Virus genome (UHGV): UHGV-0362220
Reading direction: 5' to 3' (one strand)
DNA: 25,918 nt
Source of the DNA: a virus
Below the pieces are notes generated by a model that saw nothing but the letters and a program-made list of their open reading frames with translations, had not been told where the DNA came from and searched no databases. Below are positions 12,605 through 24,634 of the stretch, piece by piece. Positions within the stretch are counted from its first letter, which is position 1. Each line of letters begins with the position of its first letter. The position numbers were made by a program, and so were the translations under genes.

Positions 12605-13321
12605 TTATCCGGCGGCTGCGCTCACTGTCACGGTGCATTCAACAGACGTCACACTCTGTGCTTTCTCTGCCGAATCGGTCACCACGCAGGTATATTTCCC
12701 CGCATCAGCGGACTGCGCACCTGGCTTACTGAAGGTGTCTGTCGTCTGCCCGTCAACCGGCTGACCATCCTTCTTCCAGGCGTATTTATACGGCGGCGTT
12801 CCCCCGTTGGCACTGACTGACATTGTCAGCAGCGCACCTGTATTCACGGTAAGTGTTTTATCCAGATTTTTCACAAACGCCAGCGGTACCACAAAGGACA
12901 CCGGTTTGCCTTTCATACGCAGTGAAAACGTTGCTGCCACCACGCCGTTGGTACCGGATGACCAGGTGTGCTGACGCACTTCCGCCAGGAACTTAAAGCC
13001 CTTACCGGACGGAAACAGCACCTTAAACGCATACAACGCGTCATTGTCATAGGCATCACGCAGGGCGTTCTGGGCCTGATTCAGATAAAAATTACCCGAC
13101 ATGGAAATCTCAGACGACGCCCCCAGACCGTTGATGTTCTCCTGCTCGGTGGAGCAGAGCGTGGTCACATCAATATCCTGTTTCTGACCAGCGGTGAACT
13201 GGACTTCCTTGATGGTGCAGTCCAGGCGCAGATATTCCGCCTTATCCATAGTTTCAGCAGTCGCCGGGGCAGATGAAATCATCACCTGCGTCAGCTGTGA
13301 GCGTTCATACAAAGCAGACAT
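12605..13321 (-). CDS. V: major tail tube protein with C-terminal Ig-like domain (V-like)
   Basis: Position immediately upstream of G/G-T; C-terminal ~80 aa show an Ig-like pattern (PPYKYAWKKDG...DAGKYTCVVTD). N-terminal domain is not lambda V-like in sequence, so the call is positional plus domain-based. Confidence 0.8.
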   Translation of the reverse strand: MSALYERSQLTQVMISSAPATAETMDKAEYLRLDCTIKEVQFTAGQKQDIDVTTLCSTEQENINGLGASSEISMSGNFYLNQAQNALRDAYDNDALYAFKVLFPSGKGFKFLAEVRQHTWSSGTNGVVAATFSLRMKGKPVSFVVPLAFVKNLDKTLTVNTGALLTMSVSANGGTPPYKYAWKKDGQPVDGQTTDTFSKPGAQSADAGKYTCVVTDSAEKAQSVTSVECTVTVSAAAG

Positions 13322-14531: not shown

Positions 14532-14858
14532 TCATAACACCGTCGGACAACGCAAATCGTAAATCAGCACGGAAACAGAAAACGGCAGCTCCCCCTGAAG
14601 CAGTTCTTCCCGCTCCGCAAGATCCGGATTCCGGTACAGCATCCCGGTCAGTCGCATGGCAGCCCCCTTCATCCGGGTTAATGCCTCGCCCGGGATCAGT
14701 TCACCGTCCTCACGGATCACTTTATCCCGGCTGCCCTGAATGTAGGCCAGCAGCACGGCGGTAGCCTGACGAACCTTGTCCATCAGCATGTCATCATCCG
14801 CGTCATGGTCGACACGCAGATGTGCCTTGATCTCTTCCAGTGTCAGTAATGCCGTCAT
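14532..14858 (-). CDS. head-tail connector protein (gp6-like)
   Basis: N-terminal LTLEEIKAHLRVDHDADDDML motif typical of gp6-like connectors; directly downstream of and overlapping the portal gene. Confidence 0.7.
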   Translation of the reverse strand: MTALLTLEEIKAHLRVDHDADDDMLMDKVRQATAVLLAYIQGSRDKVIREDGELIPGEALTRMKGAAMRLTGMLYRNPDLAEREELLQGELPFSVSVLIYDLRCPTVL

Positions 14859-17116
14859 TTTCCGCCTCCTGCATCCCGCCCACGTTTTGCAGCCAGGGTC
14901 CAGGCTGATGAATGAGCTTCTCCGGGTTTATCTTCGGTCATACTGTTGCAGTGCCACAGCGAGCCCCCCCACGTCACCGTATCGCCGGGGTGGTAGGTTT
15001 CACCGGCTCTGAACACACCGCGGTAGAGCATCACCGGCAGGGAAAATGTTTTTTCCGTACGCTGGCCACTGCTCTGCCGGACCACCACAGAGAACAACCG
15101 CTCACCCGTCATGCTGACGTCAATATCCGCCACCCCGTCAACCAGGCATTCCCATCCCCGCATCCCGTGCGTTTTTTCATACGCCCGCCAGAGTCCGCCC
15201 TGGTGTGTGGCATACGTGCCCCGGGGAAAGGATTTTTGATCGTCAATGGCGGGGAGTATTTCCAGAGCCGTGGCATCACGCCCGTCCTGCGGAGCCGGCA
15301 GGGCACTCACCGCATCCAGAACCGCCTTCTGCAGAACATCCGGATCGTAGTCACGACCATCACGCGGAACATGAATATGGCTTACCGCCTCCTTCACCAT
15401 CTGTTCAAGCATCGGACGCACATCATCCGGGGTGAGACTTTTACCGTCCGCCGGCTGCGGAATATTTGCGACCGCATCATTCACCGCCTGCTGCAGTACA
15501 TCCGGATCATAATCACGACCATCACGCGGTACCGGAATGGCCCCCACAGCGTCATCCACCATCGCCTGCAGAACCGGACGCACCTCATCCACCGTCACAT
15601 GCTTCTGTAATACCGCCGACAGGGAAGTCAGTTTCTCTTCAAACGCTTGTGCCTGCGAGGCCATCTTCCCCTCAAATGTGCGCTGTAAATCCGCCAGCAC
15701 TGTGGAGAATTCTTCTCCCAGTGCACGAATAATGGACAGTTCCCGTTCCGTCATTTTCTCAGTATCCCCCCTGAACATCGCTTTCACCGCATCATGCTCT
15801 GTTTCACTGATTGCCTTATTACCGTCAGATGCGCCGTCAGGCAGCTGTGATGAAACTGTTTTCCCGGCAGACGCGAACGGATCCTCACGGGCATCACGAC
15901 GGGACAGCGCCTCCAGACTGTAGTTCTGCTGCTGAAGATACAGTGCATCACCGCCGGCCAGGGGCGGCAGGTTCTCCCGTTTACGGGCCTCATTGGGCGT
16001 GAGAAGCGTATTTTTCACCGCATCCCCCAGCGTTTTCATGCGCCGCTCACTGTCCATTCTCAGCAGCGTGGTGACATCAAATTCTGTACTCTCGTTTTCC
16101 CCCGTTTCCAGCGCCTCATCCAGTAACAGTTCAATGGACTCAATCAGCGTCTGCAGGCACTGGGAATAATACTGCTGCTCCAGCGCCTCCACGTTGTCAC
16201 TGGAAGGCGGTTGTCCCACGCCAATCTTGTAGGCCGGGACACGGAACACCGAACAGACAATTTCAGCGGTCATCTTCAGTTGTTCCACCGTCTGCGCATC
16301 CACAGGTGAAAACGTCGTGGGGTTGTATTTTGCCCCGTTGCTCAGAATGGCCGTTTTCCCCGCATTTTCGCCTGTATACCCGCTGTCCCAGTTGCTCTTC
16401 AGTTTTTTCGCATTTTCTTCCGTAATACTGCCGGGGATCTCAATCACCCCGGACGGCCTGCCGCCATTTCTGAAAAAAGACGTCGAATTTTCCTGAATAT
16501 GATGCCCCTGCGTGGCCGCCAGCCCGGCGGCATACACCGGCGGCAATCCTATAAGCGGATGAAAAAAACAGTTAAACCGGTCGTGGATCACTTCCCGGGC
16601 AGGCACCGTCACCGCCTCCGTGATCCCGCAGTTCCGGTCCGGCGTGATGCGGTAGAACACCTCGCCGTCATCCGCCACCAGAGGTTCAACCCGGCTCCAG
16701 TCCAGAATACGCAGTTCTTTGATCTGCCCCCGGGCATTACGGATTTTCAGCACCACCGTATTGCCATGACGCAGTTTGGCGTTCAGCCACAGTTCAAAAA
16801 ACTGGATGCGGTTCTGCTGGGCGTTGGGACGACGACAGAGGCGGGCAATATCCCCCCGGCGCGTTTCCCTGCGTATCCCATGCGCATCCGTCTGCATAAG
16901 ACGCAGCCGCATTTTGGCGATATCCTGGGATATCAGCGAAATACATGCAAACACCGCATGAAAGGAGAGGACGGCTTCAGGATCGGCTTTCACGCCCTGC
17001 TGCCAGGCGCCGGAAAAGGGCTCAGCCACCGCCTGAAACAGGCTGGTCCAGCCCGCCTCTCTTACGTCACGTCCTGATTTCTGGTTTTTTCGGGTTCGCC
17101 GTAAAAGGTTCCACAT
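14855..17116 (-). CDS. portal protein (HK97 family) with ~350-aa C-terminal extension
   Basis: N-terminal ~400 aa carry HK97-portal signatures (FFRNGGRPSGVIEIPG..., ILSNGAKYNP..., FRVPAYKIGVG..., LTPNEARKRENLPPLAGGD). The extension holds two ~54-aa tandem repeats (VPRDGRDYDPDVLQ.AV.DAV) and an unrecognised terminal domain. Confidence 0.8.
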   Translation of the reverse strand: MWNLLRRTRKNQKSGRDVREAGWTSLFQAVAEPFSGAWQQGVKADPEAVLSFHAVFACISLISQDIAKMRLRLMQTDAHGIRRETRRGDIARLCRRPNAQQNRIQFFELWLNAKLRHGNTVVLKIRNARGQIKELRILDWSRVEPLVADDGEVFYRITPDRNCGITEAVTVPAREVIHDRFNCFFHPLIGLPPVYAAGLAATQGHHIQENSTSFFRNGGRPSGVIEIPGSITEENAKKLKSNWDSGYTGENAGKTAILSNGAKYNPTTFSPVDAQTVEQLKMTAEIVCSVFRVPAYKIGVGQPPSSDNVEALEQQYYSQCLQTLIESIELLLDEALETGENESTEFDVTTLLRMDSERRMKTLGDAVKNTLLTPNEARKRENLPPLAGGDALYLQQQNYSLEALSRRDAREDPFASAGKTVSSQLPDGASDGNKAISETEHDAVKAMFRGDTEKMTERELSIIRALGEEFSTVLADLQRTFEGKMASQAQAFEEKLTSLSAVLQKHVTVDEVRPVLQAMVDDAVGAIPVPRDGRDYDPDVLQQAVNDAVANIPQPADGKSLTPDDVRPMLEQMVKEAVSHIHVPRDGRDYDPDVLQKAVLDAVSALPAPQDGRDATALEILPAIDDQKSFPRGTYATHQGGLWRAYEKTHGMRGWECLVDGVADIDVSMTGERLFSVVVRQSSGQRTEKTFSLPVMLYRGVFRAGETYHPGDTVTWGGSLWHCNSMTEDKPGEAHSSAWTLAAKRGRDAGGGK

Positions 17117-17283
17117 TCGCCATGCTCCGCATCACGTTTCTTTTTCTGACCTGCCGGACGTCGCACCGTGATGTACTCCGCCTTTCCCAGGCGAACCAGC
17201 ACCTCCGCACACGGCTGTGCCACATCACGGATATCCCCGGCCCGGGCATCATGCGTGCCCTGCAGATATCGGATCTTTGCCAT
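17062..17283 (-). CDS. hypothetical protein (73 aa) between capsid and portal genes
   Basis: ATG at 17283 downstream of an SD-hairpin arrangement; overlaps the annotated portal start by 55 nt; basic and lysine-rich. Coding status uncertain. Confidence 0.3.
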   Translation of the reverse strand: MAKIRYLQGTHDARAGDIRDVAQPCAEVLVRLGKAEYITVRRPAGQKKKRDAEHGECGTFYGEPEKTRNQDVT

Positions 17284-17327: not shown

Positions 17328-19265
17328 TCAGCCGCCGGACGCACTGCCGTAGTTCACTCCGGTGATCACCGCCACCGCCGCAGTACGGCGACGACGCCAG
17401 TTGATCCAGCGCTCCGCACGGATGGCCACGCTGCCTGTCTGGAACATGGAAACCAGCTCCACCGGGGACGGCGTGGTACTGTCGCCGGTCGGCTCAGACT
17501 GCATTTCCAGTGATGCCTCGCGGGACATATCCACTGCCACGCCGCCGTCATCCGCCAGATAAATATCCGGGGCATTCACCAGCACCAGCTGGTCACCCAC
17601 GTACTGGGAGACAATCACCGGCAGCCCCTGGAAGGAGCCACCCAGCAGGGTCATGTCCGGGTATTCCTTCTGACCCAGCGCATTTTTACGCATGGACAGT
17701 GCCAGGGCATTGGTGCTGGACATCAGCCAGACCGCACCGGTGGGCTGCAGGTTTGCTGCCACAAACTGTCCAAACGCAGCCTCTGCATCCGCATCCGGGT
17801 TACCGGTTGATGCCGTGCCCTTCACATCATGGGTGATGGACGCCGGGGAGACATCTGCCACTGCGGCTTTTTTCGGGTCCACAAAGTCTGTATCCAGACG
17901 CGCCACCACCGCTTCCGCCAGCGCATTACGGACCAGTGCATCAGCAGCCGGACTGGAAAAACGGATCAATTCTTCCGTCAGTACCGCAATGGCCGACACC
18001 TTCGCATGACTGAAGGTGATGGATTCAAAATCAAACTTCGTCAGGGGTTTTGCCTTACCCTCACCCACCCAGCCGGCAGCACCGCCGGACACCTGGGCGT
18101 GCACACGGATATTGAATGGCACCTGACGAAGTGCAGGGATCCCGCCCTGACCAAATCGCCCGATAATGGTCTGCGGACGCAGGTAATCAATAAAGTCCTG
18201 TGCGTATTCCTGATATTCAGACAGGCTGCCTGCCCACTGCGGATCCGTGGTGGTCCCCGCGCCCACTGCCGATTTCAGGACATGATGCAGACGACTGTCA
18301 TCCGGATACTGACGACGGGCCACTTCCAGGGCTTCAGATCGGACGCCTTTAGCCGCAGCCAGCGATTTGGCAAAGCGGGCGAAGCCAATCCCCTTATCCA
18401 GTTTCTGCTCCACACGGATCACCGGCGCAGAAGCCACCGCGGCCACATTCCCGTTACCGGCCTGTTTCACCGGCTGCGCCGTGGCGGCCTTACCGGCTTC
18501 CAGTTCACGCAGGCGCTTCAGGTGCGCATCCACCTGACGGATTTCCGCTGCGGTGTTGTCGTAATGCTCTTCCTCCTCCACATCCAGCGTGCGCCCTTCC
18601 TCTGCGGCTTTGGTCATGACCTCCTCAAGGGAGGCTGCCAGCGCTGCACGCTTGTTTTCAAAACTTTTAATCTGTTCGCCAATATTCATTATGGTCTTTT
18701 CCTTATGAAAAACGGTTGTTGACTGTGCCGCAGCGCCGGCAGAAGATGCGATTTTCACCACCGGTTTCCGGTTGCCGGACGCGGCAGAAAACGGGCGGTC
18801 GTAAGATTTAATGGTCCGGATGGTGCATTCCGCATTCGCGGGCACGGTGACGGCAGACACCTCCATCAGTTCCCAGCGCAGAAAATGCAGTCCGCCTCCG
18901 TCCAGAAAGGTGTATTCATGGGGACGGAAGCCCACGGACAGCCCCCTGACCAGCCCGGTCTTAATGGCCGCCCAGACCTCATCCAGCCGGGCAGCCAGTT
19001 GCGACGGCATATCCGGTACGGGCTTCACCAGTGTTGCCGTGATTTCCAGCCCTTCGCTGACCCGGCGCACCGTACACTGCCCCACCGGGCGGGAATGGTC
19101 ATGCTGCCAGAGAAACGGGATCGCACTGCCAAACTCCGCGCCCTCCGGCTCCAGGATGTCACCATCCCGATCCGGAGAAGGCGTTGACGCAATCCCGGTG
19201 ATCACCCGTTCATCCTCACTGAAGGATTTCACCGTCAGCAGGGAACAGGCCCGTTTAAGAGTCAC
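17328..19265 (-). CDS. prohead protease (S78 family) fused in frame to an HK97-type major capsid protein
   Basis: N-terminus has S78 protease motifs (QHDHSRPVGQ, GLSVGF, ELMEVSAVTVPAN); then a coiled-coil segment and a capsid-like C-terminal half. GTG start at 19265 with AGGAGG 5 nt upstream. An internal in-frame ATG (MNIGEQIKSFENKRAA...) has AAGGAAAAG upstream. Confidence 0.8.
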   Translation of the reverse strand: MTLKRACSLLTVKSFSEDERVITGIASTPSPDRDGDILEPEGAEFGSAIPFLWQHDHSRPVGQCTVRRVSEGLEITATLVKPVPDMPSQLAARLDEVWAAIKTGLVRGLSVGFRPHEYTFLDGGGLHFLRWELMEVSAVTVPANAECTIRTIKSYDRPFSAASGNRKPVVKIASSAGAAAQSTTVFHKEKTIMNIGEQIKSFENKRAALAASLEEVMTKAAEEGRTLDVEEEEHYDNTAAEIRQVDAHLKRLRELEAGKAATAQPVKQAGNGNVAAVASAPVIRVEQKLDKGIGFARFAKSLAAAKGVRSEALEVARRQYPDDSRLHHVLKSAVGAGTTTDPQWAGSLSEYQEYAQDFIDYLRPQTIIGRFGQGGIPALRQVPFNIRVHAQVSGGAAGWVGEGKAKPLTKFDFESITFSHAKVSAIAVLTEELIRFSSPAADALVRNALAEAVVARLDTDFVDPKKAAVADVSPASITHDVKGTASTGNPDADAEAAFGQFVAANLQPTGAVWLMSSTNALALSMRKNALGQKEYPDMTLLGGSFQGLPVIVSQYVGDQLVLVNAPDIYLADDGGVAVDMSREASLEMQSEPTGDSTTPSPVELVSMFQTGSVAIRAERWINWRRRRTAAVAVITGVNYGSASGG

Positions 19266-19282
19266 ATCAGCCTCCTGAAAAT

Positions 19283-19303
19283 AAAAAAACCGCCGGAGCG
19301 GTT
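19283..19303 (-). terminator. hairpin plus U7 tract just upstream of the capsid gene SD
   Basis: Minus-strand RNA: AACCGC, loop UCCG, GCGGUU, then UUUUUUUAUUUUC, then AGGAGG and the GTG start at 19265. Confidence 0.4.
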
Positions 19304-19328
19304 CGTGATGGTTACAGTGTGAACAGGG

Positions 19329-20990
19329 TTATATGAAAAAAACCGCATATTCTTTCTTTTTCGGTTCCGGGTTAAGGGACATCAGGGAGACCGCATTGAA
19401 CAGCGCCATCAGCGGGTCAATTTTTCCCCGTCCACTGGCCTGTTTGGTGATAAGAATGGCGTTACCTTTAGGCTCCACCCGGGCATTGCCGACACACCAG
19501 GCCATCAGGGGCTGGTCACCATGCACCAGCACCCCTTCAGCCAGTTTGCGCTCGGTGGTTTTAATGGCCCCGCCCAGTTTCCAGCCCTGGCTTATCCCCA
19601 CCACAATTCCGTCGGGGATCCCGGCTTCCGCCAGTGAATCCAGAATCTGCCCCACCCCTGACGGGTCAATACCGATATGGTCCAGTAACTCAGCCTCATG
19701 AATGCGACGCACATATTCCGCCACTTCCGCCGTGTCATCCCCGACACGCCGGACAATGGTCATATCTCCACAGGCAACAAGATCCTGAAACCGGGACGCC
19801 TCGCTCTTCCGTCGGACCACCGCGGTTTCATGCGCCCAGGCATGGCCCCAGCCCAGCCATTCGCGGGTCTCCCGGTCACGCCCAATCACATACATCCCCA
19901 GCAGATCATCCAGCCCTCCGCCGTCAATCCCCACCGTCACCACATCAGCACGACGCAGGATATCGTCCAGGCTGATACAACGGCCCTGCTCTTCCCAGAA
20001 ATCAGCCCCCGCCCAGCGGTCAGAGCGCAGGGCAAGACCAATTTCCACATTGGCGTGTTTTGACATGAACCCCCGGAATGTCTCTTCACCGGCTTCCCGG
20101 GCTTTACGGTACTCCCGGTACAGAAAGGCCTCATCCACTGAATAGCCGAGATTCGGATTGACCATGGCGAGGTTTTCCATCAGCAGGTTAGTCCCGCTTT
20201 CCACCATTTCAGGAGGGTGTTCAAATATCACCGGCAGAAAGTGCGGATCATGAATTTTGCCGTCGCGCACATCCCGGGCGTACTGCAGTTTCTGTCTGAA
20301 CACCCCGGCGGGCGGTTCATTCGACTGGGTGGTCGTATACACCACAAACCCTTCCGGGCGGGAGGCAAGGCCGCCTATGGCTTCACGTAACATGTCCTCC
20401 GCCTTGCACTGCTTGCCAAACAGCCACAACTCATCAATCAGCGTACCCACGGACTTGATACCGGACACCGTATTCGGATCGGCTGCCACCACCTTCAGGG
20501 TGGTGTCCGTCACTCGGTGGGTGATGGTCCGGATATGGGTCTGTACCTGGCAGAGGTCATCCAGATCATCGTCACGTCGTACCATATCCCGGGCAGGGTT
20601 GAAGGCGTTGGCCGCCACCTCCACAGTCGGGGCCAGAATCGTGTAACCCGCCGCCTGCCGCCAGTTCAGTAACAGTGCAGTCATCATGATCCCCGCGGCC
20701 AGCGTGGACTTCGAGTTTTTCTTGGGGATAAGGATAAAAACTTCCTTGATATGGCGTACACCGGTCTGCGCATCGTAGGAGCCAAACAGGGCCGCCACCA
20801 GGTCAAACACCCACGGTGCACAGGACTCCCCGAACGTAGGGCTACCAGGTGCATCCACAATCCGCAGTTGTTTAAAAATCGCCAGGGCATGTGCGGCCTC
20901 GTCCGGATAAATCGGATCCGGAATAATCGACAGCCCCTTTTTCAGGCGCTCTGCCCAGTCCGGGCAGGCTGTGCTCCATACAGGTATCAT
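19329..20990 (-). CDS. terL: terminase large subunit
   Basis: Walker A-like ILIPKKNSKST, Walker B-like LIDELWLF, and a C-terminal acidic nuclease-type region (VVTVGIDGGGLDDLLGMYVIG); start overlaps the terS stop as ATGA. Confidence 0.9.
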   Translation of the reverse strand: MIPVWSTACPDWAERLKKGLSIIPDPIYPDEAAHALAIFKQLRIVDAPGSPTFGESCAPWVFDLVAALFGSYDAQTGVRHIKEVFILIPKKNSKSTLAAGIMMTALLLNWRQAAGYTILAPTVEVAANAFNPARDMVRRDDDLDDLCQVQTHIRTITHRVTDTTLKVVAADPNTVSGIKSVGTLIDELWLFGKQCKAEDMLREAIGGLASRPEGFVVYTTTQSNEPPAGVFRQKLQYARDVRDGKIHDPHFLPVIFEHPPEMVESGTNLLMENLAMVNPNLGYSVDEAFLYREYRKAREAGEETFRGFMSKHANVEIGLALRSDRWAGADFWEEQGRCISLDDILRRADVVTVGIDGGGLDDLLGMYVIGRDRETREWLGWGHAWAHETAVVRRKSEASRFQDLVACGDMTIVRRVGDDTAEVAEYVRRIHEAELLDHIGIDPSGVGQILDSLAEAGIPDGIVVGISQGWKLGGAIKTTERKLAEGVLVHGDQPLMAWCVGNARVEPKGNAILITKQASGRGKIDPLMALFNAVSLMSLNPEPKKKEYAVFFI

Positions 20991-22448: not shown

Positions 22449-22646
22449 ACGTTCGGTTTCTTCCACCATCGCACCGGACAGGCGACTATGAGGGGACAAC
22501 GCCGCGCTCCGTTAACGCGGTAAACCCCGGTGTGTATCGTTTTTGATTATCCCCGCACACTCGCGCAGAGGAGTCTCCCTGTCGGGCTGCGGTCTCTGTT
22601 AATGCAGGAATACGGCGACAATACCGCGCATGGATAATAAGGTCGC

Positions 22647-22862
22647 TCAACACACTGGCTGTAATACCATGCGGCATTTAGCGGCATTCATCGTACACTC
22701 CACGGTTAGCTCTTCATTCGTGGCATTCACCTGAAAGGTCCGGGAGTGTAATTGCGTACATTTACCACTGAACGAACCTTCAACAAGAACACGACCACGC
22801 TGCAAAATACGGAACGGAATTGTTCCCTGAAAAGGTTCTACGGTTACCCGTAATTTCTTCAT
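22647..22862 (-). CDS. hypothetical protein (71 aa), translationally coupled to Rz
   Basis: ATG overlaps the Rz stop (ATGA at 22859..22862) with GGAGGA 4 nt upstream. [13 protein letters not shown]...; no family recognised. Confidence 0.5.
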
Positions 22863-23353
22863 GTATCCTCCGGATAATAAAAAGCCAGCTTAGTGCACTG
22901 AGTGCGGATATATTCCTGCGCCCCTTCCAGCTGCTTCTGCATTGTCATCAACCGTTCTCTGAGGATGAAATAATCCCGTTCAGCGGTGTCTGCCAGTCGG
23001 GGGCCGGTTGCATTATCCACGCTGGAGGTGCCGGTGGCTTCACGCACGGTACCGGGGCAGGTGGCGTTGACCCGCAGGCGCTTACGACCAGCGGCAACAT
23101 CAGCGCGCAGAGTTTCATTTTCAGCTCTCGCATCGGCTAATTCCTTCGTGTATCTGGCATCAAGCGCAGCGACATCTCGCTGGCGCTGCTGCATGTCAGT
23201 AATAGTGGCATTCGCCAGTTTCAGCTCACTGACTTTTTTATCGCGCTGCGCTTTGTAGGTGATGGCGTTATCGCGGTAATGATTCAGCCCCAGACTAAGC
23301 ACACCACAGGCTACCAGCATGACAATAATCACCACACACAGAACACGGTTCAT
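22859..23353 (-). CDS. Rz: i-spanin Rz
   Basis: From ATG 23353 ([17 protein letters not shown]...[16 protein letters not shown]...[23 protein letters not shown]) matches lambda Rz as recalled. The listed 192-aa ORF is a GTG-initiated upstream extension. Confidence 0.9.
22948..23133 (-). CDS. Rz1: o-spanin Rz1 (lipoprotein), embedded in Rz in the +1 frame
   Basis: [25 protein letters not shown]...[27 protein letters not shown] matches lambda Rz1; lipobox VSAC; proline-rich mature part. Confidence 0.85.
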
Positions 23354-23354
23354 A

Positions 23355-23441
23355 TCACCACCAACGGATTGCCCAGACCAGAACAGCAATGGCCACAATA
23401 CGAATGGCAAATGCCATTGCCCGAATAAGTTCAGCACTCAT
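23355..23441 (-). CDS. candidate 28-aa hydrophobic peptide immediately upstream of Rz
   Basis: ATG 23441 to TGA 23357..23355 ([28 protein letters not shown]); the stop overlaps the Rz start region (UGAUAUG). Weak SD (AAAAAG). Absent from the ORF track because it is under 60 aa. Confidence 0.3.
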
Positions 23442-23705
23442 CTTTTTAAAGTTCACGATTTCAGCGCAATGACCAGTTTTGCCAGCCCATACAGCATCGG
23501 AGACACAGCAATACCAACAGCCACCCACTTAATAGCAAAAGCCAGCGCTCTGCTGATGTCATCAGTCACTGTCACCCCAGCAGCCCCGACGAAGACAACA
23601 TCACCCAGGCGAGGGACAGAAAAAGAGCAACCAGCATTAGTGAAAATGAAATACCGACAATCACACACAGGACCTTTGCCGGCGTTATGAGTTTGTCTGA
23701 CATAG

Positions 23706-23801
23706 CTACCCCTTAATTGCCACAATTAACTGGGATACTACCCATAAAAAAGGGATGCTCCAGACCAGCAAAAATTTCCAGTTTGGTAATTGACTAATCA
23801 T
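23706..23801 (-). CDS. candidate 31-aa single-transmembrane peptide between endolysin and Rz
   Basis: ATG at 23801 with AGGGAG 9 nt upstream (MISQLPNWKFLLVWSIPFLWVVSQLIVAIKG). Nested as an in-frame internal start in the listed 70-aa ORF, whose GTG start lies inside the terminator hairpin. Confidence 0.35.
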   Translation of the reverse strand: MISQLPNWKFLLVWSIPFLWVVSQLIVAIKG

Positions 23802-23865
23802 GAGTCGCAACTCCCTAATCAGTTTGCTAAAATCAATCAAGGCAGCCTCCCATAGCTTACTGCCA

Positions 23866-23910
23866 TAAAAACAAAACCCCGCTTGCTGCCAACAAACGGG
23901 GTTTTTACTT
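23866..23910. terminator. bidirectional intrinsic terminator inside the lysis cassette, between endolysin and Rz
   Basis: 9-bp stem AAAACCCCG (23873..23881) / CGGGGTTTT (23897..23905), 15-nt loop; U-rich tracts follow on both strands (plus UUUUUACUUUU; minus UUUUGUUUUUAU). Confidence 0.6.
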
Positions 23911-23995
23911 TTATTCACTTAGGTTTTGCCAGTTCACAGGACTTCGTGTTATCCGCCCGCGTTGGCCAACCTCATTTTTCAGCAAAATATTCTGC

Positions 23996-24529
23996 TTATC
24001 TGTCGATTCCCCAGCACGCCAGCGCGCTCTCCTGGTCACGACGGAATACCTGACCGTAACAGTTATTTGAGCGAATACGGCAGTCTCTGCCACCGTCCTT
24101 AATCCACCAGCGAATCGCTTCGCATGCTCCCCTGCGATCACCTGCATTAATTCGTCTGTAAAACGTCGACGGGAAACACTTACCGGGACCAATGTTGTAC
24201 GGACAGAATGACGCGATCCCCGCTTTCTGGGGTTCGGTCAATGGCACTTTGATGTTTTTCTCCACCCATGCCAGCGCCTTATCACGCTCAATGGCGTTAA
24301 CCCGGTCGCATTTTTCCTTCGACAACTTCATGCCCGGAACGACAGGTTTGCCATCCACCAGGATGGCACCGCGGCAGATGGTCCAGATACCCGCGCCATC
24401 ACGGTATGCCGTGGTGTGGTTACCTTCCTTTTCATCCAGAAACTGGTCGAGAATGTCAGGCGCAGGCGCACCAGCGGCAATCAGCGCCAGAACGGCAGCC
24501 GACAGGCCGTATCTGATTTTTGCGTTCAT
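23996..24529 (-). CDS. endolysin, T4-lysozyme (GH24) type with N-terminal signal-anchor-release (SAR) segment
   Basis: Catalytic triad spacing E-9-D-6-T in LDEKEGNHTTAYRDGAGIWT; Gly/Ala-rich weakly hydrophobic N-terminus (GLSAAVLALIAAGAPA); eight cysteines in the catalytic domain. Confidence 0.9.
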   Translation of the reverse strand: MNAKIRYGLSAAVLALIAAGAPAPDILDQFLDEKEGNHTTAYRDGAGIWTICRGAILVDGKPVVPGMKLSKEKCDRVNAIERDKALAWVEKNIKVPLTEPQKAGIASFCPYNIGPGKCFPSTFYRRINAGDRRGACEAIRWWIKDGGRDCRIRSNNCYGQVFRRDQESALACWGIDR

Positions 24530-24634
24530 GGATATTTATCAGGATTTATCGGTTTCTGAGCCCTGGATATGTTTATCAGTTCCAGCCTGTTGCCTCAGGC
24601 TGCTAACAGGTCAATACAATCATGAGGATTATTT

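What the first reader, a model, noticed from the sequence alone, without database searches (positions are those of the whole stretch)
17328..19265. Protease-capsid fusion with a possible nested internal start, and unusual head gene order (terL, protease/capsid, portal)
A single 645-aa frame joins an S78-type prohead protease domain to an HK97-like capsid protein. An in-frame ATG (about 18694, MNIGEQIKSFENKRAALAASLEEV...) preceded by AAGGAAAAG looks like a natural capsid N-terminus, so both a long fusion and a short capsid-only product may be made. The portal gene lies downstream of the capsid gene rather than between terL and the protease as in HK97.
Basis: partly seen in the sequence, partly recalled or inferred. 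Interest (0 to 1): 0.45.

Follow-up and report, generated by a model that had tools for sequence, protein, structure and literature searches.

The report
Nested capsid gene inside protease-capsid fusion
A common E. coli prophage gene joins the head-maturation protease to the major capsid protein, and a ribosome-binding site plus start codon conserved at the joint in about 140 diverged relatives suggests it also makes the capsid protein alone; the fusion and the gene order were already annotated, but I found no description of the nested start.

Summary
On the minus strand, 19265..17328 is one 645-aa ORF. It has an HK97-type (S78) prohead protease domain, a variable disordered linker, a helical delta-like domain and an HK97-family capsid shell domain. 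An in-frame ATG lies at 18689 (M193), 10 nt after TAAGGA. The gene order is terS-terL-fusion-orf73-portal.

The fusion and the order are not new. The gene is annotated "major head protein/prohead protease" in Stx phages (BP-4795, 2851) and "prohead protease fused capsid protein" in Pseudomonas phage PAJU2. It occurs in 1255 of 5426 complete E. coli genomes, and the order holds in every related locus long enough to show it.

The new point is comparative support for the nested start. In 138 distinct fused homologs (median pairwise identity 50%), the M193 column holds a start codon in 96% and a start codon plus Shine-Dalgarno in 90%. Other columns average 3.6%. ATG is replaced by GTG nine times. 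The site is the least structured part of the mRNA. Unfused relatives start their capsid gene at exactly this residue.

The best reading is a nested gene pair like lambda C/Nu3, but with the capsid protein itself as the inner product. Two protein products have not been shown. Interest is moderate.

The parts
17328..19265 (-). Full 645-aa ORF (69.0 kDa): protease, linker, delta-like domain and capsid shell domain. GTG start.
   Evidence: PHROG 617 matches over the full length.
19271..19276 (-). Shine-Dalgarno AGGAGG of the long product, 5 nt before GTG 19265. Most homologs have ATG here.
18798..19265 (-). HK97-family (S78) prohead protease domain, aa 1-156. Catalytic His55 is the codon at 19103-19101 and Ser110 the codon at 18938-18936.
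   Evidence: Pfam PF04586. BLASTP against HK97 gp4 gives 29% identity, E 4e-9, with S110 aligned to gp4 S114 and H55 beside gp4 H65. H55 and S110 are invariant in 42 sequences at 36-53% identity to the query.
18690..18797 (-). Variable, probably disordered linker (aa 157-192), A-rich at its 3' end.
   Evidence: Indels and low conservation: commonest-residue frequency 0.45, against 0.69 for the protease domain and 0.73 for the shell domain. AlphaFold pLDDT is 22-26 over aa 140-193.
18700..18705 (-). Internal Shine-Dalgarno TAAGGA, read in frame as ..cAT AAG GAa.. (His-Lys-Glu).
   Evidence: The equivalent AAGGA, AGGAGG or GGAGGG motif is present in 90% of 138 fused homologs.
18687..18689 (-). 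Internal in-frame ATG (M193), the proposed start of the nested capsid gene.
   Evidence: Unfused relatives and capsid-only proteins begin at the homologous residue.
17328..18689 (-). Proposed nested ORF: 453-aa (48.2 kDa) capsid precursor made of the delta-like domain plus the shell domain.
   Evidence: (TIGR01554 profile position 3 aligns to aa 204).
18483..18683 (-). Helical, coiled-coil-like N-terminal scaffolding (delta-like) region, aa 195-261.
   Evidence: AlphaFold helices 195-222 and 229-261 at pLDDT about 77. In the profile search, aa 194-263 match residues 3-72 of the solved major head protein 9gyi_B, E 3e-10.
17331..18257 (-). HK97-family capsid shell region, roughly aa 337-645 (32.7 kDa if cleaved near aa 336). 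The boundary is inferred.
   Evidence: Pfam PF05065. PDB profile hits 9d9w (1.4e-17), 8gta, 6tba and 6b0x. A weak local alignment puts TDPQWAGSL.. opposite HK97 gp5 residues 107-141, just after the gp5 cleavage site.
19287..19304 (-). Hairpin plus T-run (terminator-like) between terL and the fusion gene, about 10 nt upstream of the 5' SD.
   Evidence: A hairpin plus T-run is present at the same place in most homologs. HK97 has an annotated putative terminator just before its protease gene.
19329..20990 (-). Large terminase gene, immediately upstream.
17062..17283 (-). Conserved 73-aa ORF between the capsid and portal genes (PHROG 829, function unknown).
14855..17116 (-). Portal gene, downstream of the capsid gene. 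Here it is 753 aa because it is fused to a repeat-containing C-terminal extension.

Best explanation
This is a dual-initiation (nested) head gene of a lambdoid siphophage prophage of the BP-4795/2851 type.

Ribosomes starting at GTG 19265 make a 69-kDa polyprotein: S78 prohead protease, flexible linker, delta-like scaffolding domain and HK97-fold shell domain. Ribosomes starting at the internal ATG 18689 (SD TAAGGA, in an A-rich unstructured stretch) make the 48-kDa capsid precursor alone.

Both products carry the same delta and shell domains, so they should co-assemble around the portal. Each long subunit would then bring one covalently tethered protease into the procapsid interior. After assembly the protease (His55/Ser110) would cut away the linker and the delta domains near aa 330-340, leaving a shell protein of about 33 kDa.

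The arrangement is the covalent equivalent of the non-covalent targeting of HK97 gp4 to the gp5 delta domain. It uses the same logic as lambda C/Nu3 and herpesvirus UL26/UL26.5.

Shown here:
- the ORF and its domains;
- the conserved catalytic dyad;
- the conserved SD plus start codon at the joint;
- low mRNA structure at the joint;
- coincidence of M193 with the N-terminus of unfused capsid genes.

Inferred:
- that both products are made, and in what ratio;
- co-assembly;
- the cleavage positions.
For: (1) The fusion is maintained by selection. The top 120 hits in Enterobacterales are almost all two-domain proteins of 644-648 aa. About 130 of the best 150 representatives of 50%-identity clusters are two-domain proteins of 590-740 aa. 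The ORF stays open through a linker that varies in length and sequence. H55 and S110 are invariant.

(2) The internal initiation region is conserved. In 138 distinct fused ORFs (median pairwise identity 50%), the column of M193 holds ATG, GTG or TTG in 96%. It holds a start codon with SD pairing of -5 kcal/mol or better in 90%. Other well-occupied columns average 3.6%, and the next best internal column reaches 38%. The annotated 5' start column itself scores 58% at the exact column and 76% within 2 columns.

(3) The start codon turns over while the residue does not stay fixed. Nine ORFs from about six or seven distinct sequence contexts have GTG (Val when read through) instead of ATG, eight of them behind AGGAGG-like motifs. 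In L023 and L027 the ATG is shifted by 7 and 2 codons together with its SD.

(4) The 60 nt around the internal start are among the least structured in the ORF. For the window the folding energy is -5.8 against -18.3 +/- 4.9 kcal/mol. The z-score is positive in 33 of 33 homologs, and 28 of 33 lie in the top 10%. GC is 41% at the junction against 57% for the ORF.

(5) About 40 distinct unfused relatives start their capsid gene at the residue homologous to M193. The protease stop is often the TAA of a TAAGGA SD lying 9-10 nt upstream, or an ATGA overlap. Capsid-only representatives P0251 and P0264 begin MNYAEQI and MNIAEQI.

(6) The mechanism has precedents. Nested protease/scaffold genes are known in lambda and HSV-1, and were shown by initiation-site ribosome profiling in archaeal virus HFTV1 (bioRxiv 10.64898/2026.09.13.751334).
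Against: - No protein or ribosome-profiling data were available, so two products are not demonstrated.
- In E. coli the internal SD is only moderate (TAAGGA, -6.2 kcal/mol), and 15 in-frame start codons in this ORF have an equal or better SD. The single sequence is therefore not decisive.
- The 5' start has the stronger SD (AGGAGG, -10.3 kcal/mol). The long product is therefore not obviously the minor one, and upstream-initiated ribosomes could occlude the internal site.
- Fused and unfused states can differ by a single nucleotide (TAAGGA versus AAAGGA). Part of the SD/ATG conservation could therefore reflect repeated recent fusions.
- The A-rich, unstructured character could partly follow from the Lys/Asn/Thr-rich composition of the linker.
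- The 138 ORFs are phylogenetically related, so the percentages are not independent trials.
Confidence: 0.72

Rival explanations
1. Single polyprotein only. Every capsid subunit is made as the 69-kDa fusion and carries its own protease (1:1), which cuts itself and the delta domain off after assembly. The SD-like motif and Met at the joint are evolutionary leftovers of a formerly separate capsid gene, or serve as a translational pause.
For: The 5' SD is strong (AGGAGG). Protease-capsid fusions are annotated as single proteins in many phages: Arthrobacter clusters AM, AU and AN (PMC5513430), MD8 gp5 (PMC8508860) and PAJU2. Fusion can arise from the unfused state by one base change in TAAGGA, so relic signals are expected soon after a fusion event.
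Against: A relic would decay. The surrounding linker has diverged almost completely (commonest-residue frequency 0.45, with indels), yet the start codon persists in 96% and SD plus start in 90% of 138 ORFs at median 50% identity. Met is replaced only by GTG-encoded Val, never by a non-initiator codon without another start nearby. The start moves together with its SD in L023 and L027. A pause function would explain the SD but not the start codon or the minimum in mRNA structure.
Confidence: 0.2
2. Only the short capsid protein matters. The upstream protease part is a decaying or dispensable remnant read through by accident, and maturation does not need it.
For: The TIGR01543 score (46.5 bits) is below NCBI's equivalog cutoff of 59. 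Pseudogenised copies exist, for example in the Arsenophonus endosymbiont locus L022.
Against: The protease domain is well conserved (commonest-residue frequency 0.69). The catalytic His and Ser are invariant across 42 sequences at 36-53% identity to the query, and Ser110 aligns exactly with HK97 gp4 Ser114. No other protease or scaffold gene is present in the head module. The same gene is in inducible Stx phages.
Confidence: 0.04
3. Artefact. A sequencing or assembly error has removed a stop codon or frameshift between two separate genes.
For: Unfused relatives differ by as little as one base. A few database entries are obvious mis-joins, such as the 1079-aa terL-protease-capsid protein P0001.
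Against: Identical or near-identical fused ORFs occur in 93 phage records and 1255 complete E. coli genomes. The fused ORF is also found in hundreds of diverged lineages.
Confidence: 0.01

Closest known systems
Lambda C/Nu3, herpes simplex UL26/UL26.5 and HFTV1 gp17/gp17.5 (nested in-frame protease/scaffold genes)
   Same: One ORF has an N-terminal maturation protease and a C-terminal assembly domain. An in-frame internal start at the domain boundary gives the assembly protein alone, and the long form carries the protease into the procapsid (for HFTV1 and its summary of lambda and HSV-1; lambda and HSV details are established knowledge).
   Different: In those systems the inner product is a free scaffolding protein that leaves the capsid. 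Here the inner product is the major capsid protein itself, with an HK97-style delta domain. The protease family also differs: S78 here, S49-like in lambda, assemblin in HSV. Two products are not yet shown here.
HK97 gp4 (protease) plus gp5 (delta domain and capsid protein), separate adjacent genes
   Same: The protease family and catalytic Ser/His are the same. The capsid family is the same (TIGR01554, PF05065), as is the N-terminal helical scaffolding domain. The protease lies immediately upstream of the capsid gene, and a terminator-like hairpin precedes the protease gene.
   Different: The two genes are fused in frame here. The window protease portion is 192 aa against 225 aa for gp4, and the alignment ends near gp4 residue 162, so the gp4 C-terminal tail is replaced by a 36-aa linker. 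The portal gene lies after, not before, the protease and capsid genes. Direct capsid-to-gp5 BLASTP is not significant (E 0.31).
Pseudomonas phage PAJU2 ORF003 ('prohead protease fused capsid protein') and Stx phages BP-4795 ORF56 and 2851 gp17
   Same: These are direct homologs with the same architecture and the same order: terL, fusion, small ORF(s), portal, portal-adjacent ORF, adaptor. PAJU2 also has PKPQEGND-M-KTTAEQ at the joint.
   Different: No difference of kind; the window gene is a member of this group. Their annotations describe one fusion protein and do not mention an internal start.
Gifsy-2 tripartite capsid gene (Effantin et al. 2010, Virology 402:355, cited in PMC8538268) and Pseudomonas phage MD8 gp5 (PMC8508860)
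   Same: A single ORF encodes protease, a scaffolding region and an HK97-fold capsid protein. The Gifsy-2 gene also has an in-frame ATG with a GAGGAG SD directly after the protease domain, at residue 221.
   Different: The protease there is ClpP-like, not S78. The scaffolding region is lambda Nu3-like. In Gifsy-2 the portal is in the usual place before the gene. A ClpP-type protease fused to the capsid family of this window also exists (P0261).
Actinobacteriophage 'major capsid and protease fusion protein' (Arthrobacter clusters AM, AU, AN; Microbacterium cluster EE) and NCBIfam NF045541
   Same: The same category of fusion is recognised in curated annotation.
   Different: Sequence relatedness is weak. 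NF045541 scores 54 bits against a cutoff of 525. The junctions of those phages were not examined.

Membership tests
HK97-family prohead protease (Pfam Peptidase_S78 / TIGR01543) | Significant match to the family model | tested here: met
   PF04586 scores 34.7 bits (cutoff 21) over aa 48-152. BLASTP against HK97 gp4 gives E 4e-9. TIGR01543 scores 46.5 bits, below its equivalog cutoff of 59. The domain therefore belongs to the Pfam family but is not called by NCBI's strict model.
HK97-family prohead protease (Pfam Peptidase_S78 / TIGR01543) | Catalytic His and Ser present and conserved | tested here: met
   S110 aligns with gp4 S114, and H55 lies one column from gp4 H65 in an ungapped stretch. 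H55 and S110 are invariant in alignments A1 and A2.
HK97-family prohead protease (Pfam Peptidase_S78 / TIGR01543) | Proteolytic processing of the capsid precursor | not testable with these tools
   Needs protein work.
HK97-family major capsid protein with N-terminal delta (scaffolding) domain | Significant match to family models and to solved HK97-fold capsid proteins | tested here: met
   TIGR01554 scores 78.1 bits (cutoff 27.5) over aa 204-584. PF05065 scores 53.1 bits. The profile search against PDB hits 9d9w at 1.4e-17, and also 8gta, 6tba and 6b0x.
HK97-family major capsid protein with N-terminal delta (scaffolding) domain | HK97 fold in a structure model | tested here: inconclusive
   The AlphaFold model from a shallow 19-sequence alignment has mean pLDDT 44.6, so it was not used for a fold search.
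HK97-family major capsid protein with N-terminal delta (scaffolding) domain | Helical N-terminal domain preceding the shell domain | tested here: met
   Helices 195-222 and 229-261 have pLDDT about 77. Residues 194-263 match residues 3-72 of solved head protein 9gyi_B, E 3e-10.
HK97-family major capsid protein with N-terminal delta (scaffolding) domain | Delta domain removed on maturation; chainmail cross-link residues | not tested
   The cleavage site near aa 336 is only inferred from a weak local alignment. Cross-link residues were not examined.
Nested in-frame protease/assembly-protein gene pairs (lambda C/Nu3 type) | Protease and assembly domain in one ORF | tested here: met
Nested in-frame protease/assembly-protein gene pairs (lambda C/Nu3 type) | In-frame internal translation initiation region at the domain boundary | tested here: met
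   TAAGGA, 10 nt, ATG. The site is conserved in 90-96% of 138 fused homologs, with GTG substitutions and a minimum in mRNA structure. This is sequence evidence only.
Nested in-frame protease/assembly-protein gene pairs (lambda C/Nu3 type) | Two polypeptides actually produced from the two starts | not testable with these tools
   No proteomic or ribosome-profiling data were reachable, and no paper was found.
Nested in-frame protease/assembly-protein gene pairs (lambda C/Nu3 type) | Inner product is a free scaffolding protein distinct from the shell protein | tested here: not met
   The inner ORF encodes the capsid protein itself. This is therefore a variant of the known nested pairs, not a member.
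Protease-capsid fusion proteins (PAJU2 ORF003 / BP-4795 ORF56 group; NCBIfam NF045541) | Homology and same architecture as annotated fusion proteins | tested here: met
   DNA identity to BP-4795 and 2851 is 98-99.8%. PAJU2 ORF003 has the same architecture and synteny.
Protease-capsid fusion proteins (PAJU2 ORF003 / BP-4795 ORF56 group; NCBIfam NF045541) | Passes the NF045541 model cutoff | tested here: not met
   It scores 54 bits against a cutoff of 525. That model describes a different, distantly related fusion family.

The most novel reading that the evidence does not exclude
The major capsid protein of a very widespread prophage lineage is the inner product of a dual-initiation gene. The number of proteases per procapsid would then be set by the ratio of two initiation sites on one mRNA. 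Evolution would switch between separate genes and a nested fusion by single-base changes in a UAAGGA element that serves both as the protease stop codon and as the capsid Shine-Dalgarno. The same logic may hold for ClpP-type fusions such as Gifsy-2.
Probability: 0.65. Interest if true: 0.55.

Novelty: new variant of a known kind. Interest (0 to 1): 0.45.

Why it matters
The gene is in about a quarter of complete E. coli genomes, including Shiga-toxin phages, and in hundreds of diverged prophage lineages of Gamma- and Alphaproteobacteria. Current annotation gives it one product.

If the nested start is used, three things follow:
- Genome annotation misses the real capsid precursor.
- The "nested protease" strategy known from lambda, herpesviruses and an archaeal virus extends to viruses whose scaffold is part of the capsid protein.
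- It gives a simple, testable answer to how an HK97-type protease is dosed and delivered when it lacks the gp4 C-terminal tail.

It also warns that protease-capsid fusion genes expressed for nanoparticle work may yield two products.

Tried and rejected
- AlphaFold on the full protein with the 19-sequence alignment gave a poor model (pLDDT 44.6). No fold search was run, and only the local secondary structure and confidence pattern were used.
- Direct BLASTP of the capsid part against HK97 gp5 was not significant (E 0.31). Family membership therefore rests on HMM and profile hits.
- The single-sequence SD statistic is not significant: 15 comparable in-frame sites occur in the ORF.
- Seven full-text searches found no paper reporting an internal start in an S78-capsid fusion or proteomics of this gene.
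- Three papers were not held: the Gifsy-2 paper, Duda et al. 2013 and a third cited structural paper on a capsid with its protease. I could not check whether they discuss internal initiation.
- RNAalifold on the hairpin upstream of the gene gave only 3 consensus pairs and little covariation, because the alignment shifts register. Each sequence nevertheless has its own hairpin plus T-run.
- A sequencing artefact and a pseudogenised protease were considered and rejected; see the rival explanations.
Full report
WHAT IS THERE

The finding lies on the minus strand. One ORF runs from a GTG at 19265 to a TGA at 17330-17328 and encodes 645 aa, 69.0 kDa. Pfam places a Peptidase_S78 (HK97-type prohead protease) domain at aa 48-152 and a Phage_capsid domain at aa 386-635. 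NCBIfam's HK97 major-capsid model TIGR01554 covers aa 204-584 at 78 bits.

The protease part aligns with HK97 gp4 at 29% identity, E 4e-9. Ser110 lies opposite the gp4 nucleophile Ser114, and His55 lies beside gp4 His65. Both residues are invariant in 42 homologs that are only 36-53% identical to the query.

Residues 157-192 form a linker with indels and little conservation. AlphaFold confidence there is very low. Residues 195-261 are two confident helices. They match the first 70 residues of a solved, free-standing major head protein (9gyi_B, E 3e-10), so they form an HK97-style delta (scaffolding) domain.

It is preceded by TAAGGA and a 10-nt spacer. The surrounding order on the minus strand is terS, terL, this gene, a 73-aa ORF, portal, head-tail connector, head completion, gp10-like, tail completion and tail tube.

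WHAT IS ALREADY KNOWN

The same gene, at 98-100% DNA identity, is in 93 phage records. These are mostly long-tailed Shiga-toxin phages such as BP-4795, 2851 and YYZ-2008, where it is annotated "putative major head protein/prohead protease". It is in 1255 of 5426 complete E. coli genomes, with up to seven places per genome, annotated "phage major capsid protein".

Pseudomonas phage PAJU2 has a homolog annotated "prohead protease fused capsid protein", with the same neighbours. Curated resources have categories for such fusions: NCBIfam NF045541, PHROG 4523 and the actinobacteriophage term "major capsid and protease fusion protein". Triple protease-scaffold-capsid genes have been discussed for Gifsy-2 and MD8.

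The gene order terL, protease, capsid, small ORF, portal is found in every related locus long enough to show it. These come from Enterobacterales, Proteus, Marinobacter, Hydrocarboniphaga, Hyphomicrobiales, Caulobacteraceae and viral metagenome contigs. The order holds whether or not protease and capsid are fused. The order differs from HK97, but it is a lineage trait, not a local rearrangement.

THE NESTED START

In the window alone the internal site proves nothing. Fifteen in-frame start codons in this ORF have an equal or better SD. The comparison is decisive.

I collected 138 distinct fused ORFs with median pairwise identity 50%. In their alignment:
- The M193 column holds a start codon in 96% of sequences.
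- It holds a start codon with SD pairing of -5 kcal/mol or better in 90%.
- The mean for other well-occupied columns is 3.6%.
- The best other internal column reaches 38%, where a conserved Asp-Asp-Gly-Gly happens to encode an SD-like string.
- The annotated 5' start column scores 58% at the exact column and 76% within 2 columns.

This conservation sits at the edge of the least conserved stretch of the protein. The commonest-residue frequency is 0.45 in the linker, against 0.69 in the protease domain and 0.73 in the shell domain.

The residue is not conserved as methionine. Nine ORFs, from about six or seven distinct sequence contexts, have GTG (Val when read through), eight of them behind AGGAGG-like motifs. 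In two alphaproteobacterial loci the ATG has moved by 2 or 7 codons together with its SD. Among 42 representative proteins, 39 have Met and 3 have Val within three residues of the boundary.

The 60 nt around the site are the least structured, or nearly the least structured, window of the ORF in most homologs. For the window sequence the folding energy is -5.8 against -18.3 +/- 4.9 kcal/mol. The z-score is positive in 33 of 33 homologs, and GC is 41% against 57%.

ORIGIN OF THE FUSION

About 40 distinct relatives have separate genes. Their capsid gene starts at the residue homologous to M193.

In many of these the protease stop is the TAA of a TAAGGA Shine-Dalgarno lying 9 nt (in frame) or 10 nt before the ATG. 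In others the stop overlaps the start as ATGA. The fused forms read the same element as sense codons, for example AAA GGA (Lys-Gly), or, in this window, cAT AAG GAa. Fusion and fission can therefore be single-base events. The capsid SD is physically the same element as the end of the protease gene.

A ClpP-type protease is fused to the same capsid family in P0261, again with Met at the joint. The Gifsy-2 gene has an in-frame ATG with a GAGGAG SD right after its ClpP domain.

MECHANISM

The best-supported reading (confidence about 0.7) is a nested gene pair. The long product is a capsid subunit carrying a tethered protease, and the short product is the ordinary capsid precursor. The two share delta and shell domains, co-assemble, and place the protease inside the procapsid. 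The protease then removes linker and delta domains.

This parallels lambda C/Nu3, HSV-1 UL26/UL26.5 and HFTV1 gp17/gp17.5, the last shown by initiation-site profiling. The difference is that the inner product here is the shell protein itself.

The window protease portion is 192 aa against 225 aa for HK97 gp4, and the alignment ends near gp4 residue 162. Replacement of a targeting tail by a covalent link is consistent with this, but it is an inference from established knowledge of gp4.

The ratio of the two products cannot be predicted. The 5' site has the stronger SD. In the E. coli lineage that site uses GTG, whereas most homologs use ATG.

RIVALS

A single polyprotein with relic signals (about 0.2) is the serious alternative. 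It is weakened by the depth of conservation in an otherwise scrambled linker, by the GTG replacements and by the structure minimum. It cannot be excluded without protein data. Frequent single-base switching between the two states could also keep the signals fresh. A dispensable protease and a sequencing artefact are effectively excluded.

VERDICT

The fusion and the gene order are already annotated and ordinary for this lineage. I found no description of the nested start in the searchable literature. The Gifsy-2 paper, Duda et al. 2013 and a third cited structural paper could not be read.

I rate it a new variant of a known kind, of moderate interest. It is unsurprising in principle to a phage-assembly specialist. 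It is very widespread, is annotated as a single product in the records seen here, and is directly testable.

Noticed in passing
window 14855-17116 (minus strand), especially 14855-15763: The portal ORF is 753 aa. A normal portal of about 450 aa (TIGR01537) is fused in frame to a roughly 300-aa extension. The extension has tandem ~40-aa repeats (VPRDGRDYDPDVLQ..) and a weak CBM_5_12-like C-terminus. In BP-4795 and most relatives this extension is a separate, overlapping downstream gene (ORF59; 229-461 aa; some copies have collagen-like GKDG repeats). The repeat region varies in length between phage records. This may be a second gene fusion in the same head module, or a frameshift.
   Followed up: partly
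window 19277-19306 (minus strand): A terminator-like hairpin plus T-run (GAACCGCTCCGGCGGTTT + TTTTATTTTC) lies between terL and the fusion gene, about 10 nt before its SD. A hairpin plus T-run occurs at the same place in most homologs from different genera. HK97 has an annotated putative terminator just before its protease gene. RNAalifold gave little covariation because the alignment shifts register. Its role is unknown: attenuator, or mRNA end or stability element.
   Followed up: partly
window 19263-19265 (minus strand): In the E. coli Stx-phage lineage (this window and BP-4795) the long product starts with GTG. Most other homologs examined use ATG behind a similar GGAGG motif. This may lower the long:short product ratio in this lineage.
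   Followed up: no
window 17062-17283 (minus strand): A conserved 73-aa ORF lies between the capsid and portal genes (PHROG 829, no Pfam or NCBIfam hit). It overlaps the longest portal ORF by 55 nt and is present in most Enterobacterales loci at 32-58% identity. Function unknown.
   Followed up: partly
loci L161-L220 (for example L162, around 2076-2090) and L046/L047 (around 2606-2614): In unfused relatives the protease stop codon is the TAA of the capsid gene's TAAGGA Shine-Dalgarno, often exactly 9 nt (in frame) before the ATG. In L046 and L047 stop and start overlap as ATGA. A single base change would therefore fuse or separate the genes.
   Followed up: yes
L221 (Gifsy-2) 22471-24561, codon 221: The Gifsy-2 tripartite ClpP-scaffold-capsid gene has an in-frame ATG (MPQSIKG..) directly after the protease domain, with a GAGGAG SD (-8.8 kcal/mol) and low local structure (z 1.85). 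This is a possible nested start there too. It is a single sequence and conservation was not tested.
   Followed up: partly
proteins P0261, P0001, P0123, P0132: P0261 is a ClpP-type protease fused to the same capsid family, which suggests protease-domain swapping. P0001 (1079 aa), P0123 and P0132 (about 1090 aa) appear to join terL or other upstream sequence to the protease-capsid ORF. These may be real larger fusions or assembly or gene-calling errors.
   Followed up: no
window 12605-13321 (minus strand): The tail tube protein carries a C-terminal immunoglobulin-like domain (Pfam Ig_3, Ig_2 and I-set hits). This is common in siphophage tail tubes and is noted only for completeness.
   Followed up: no
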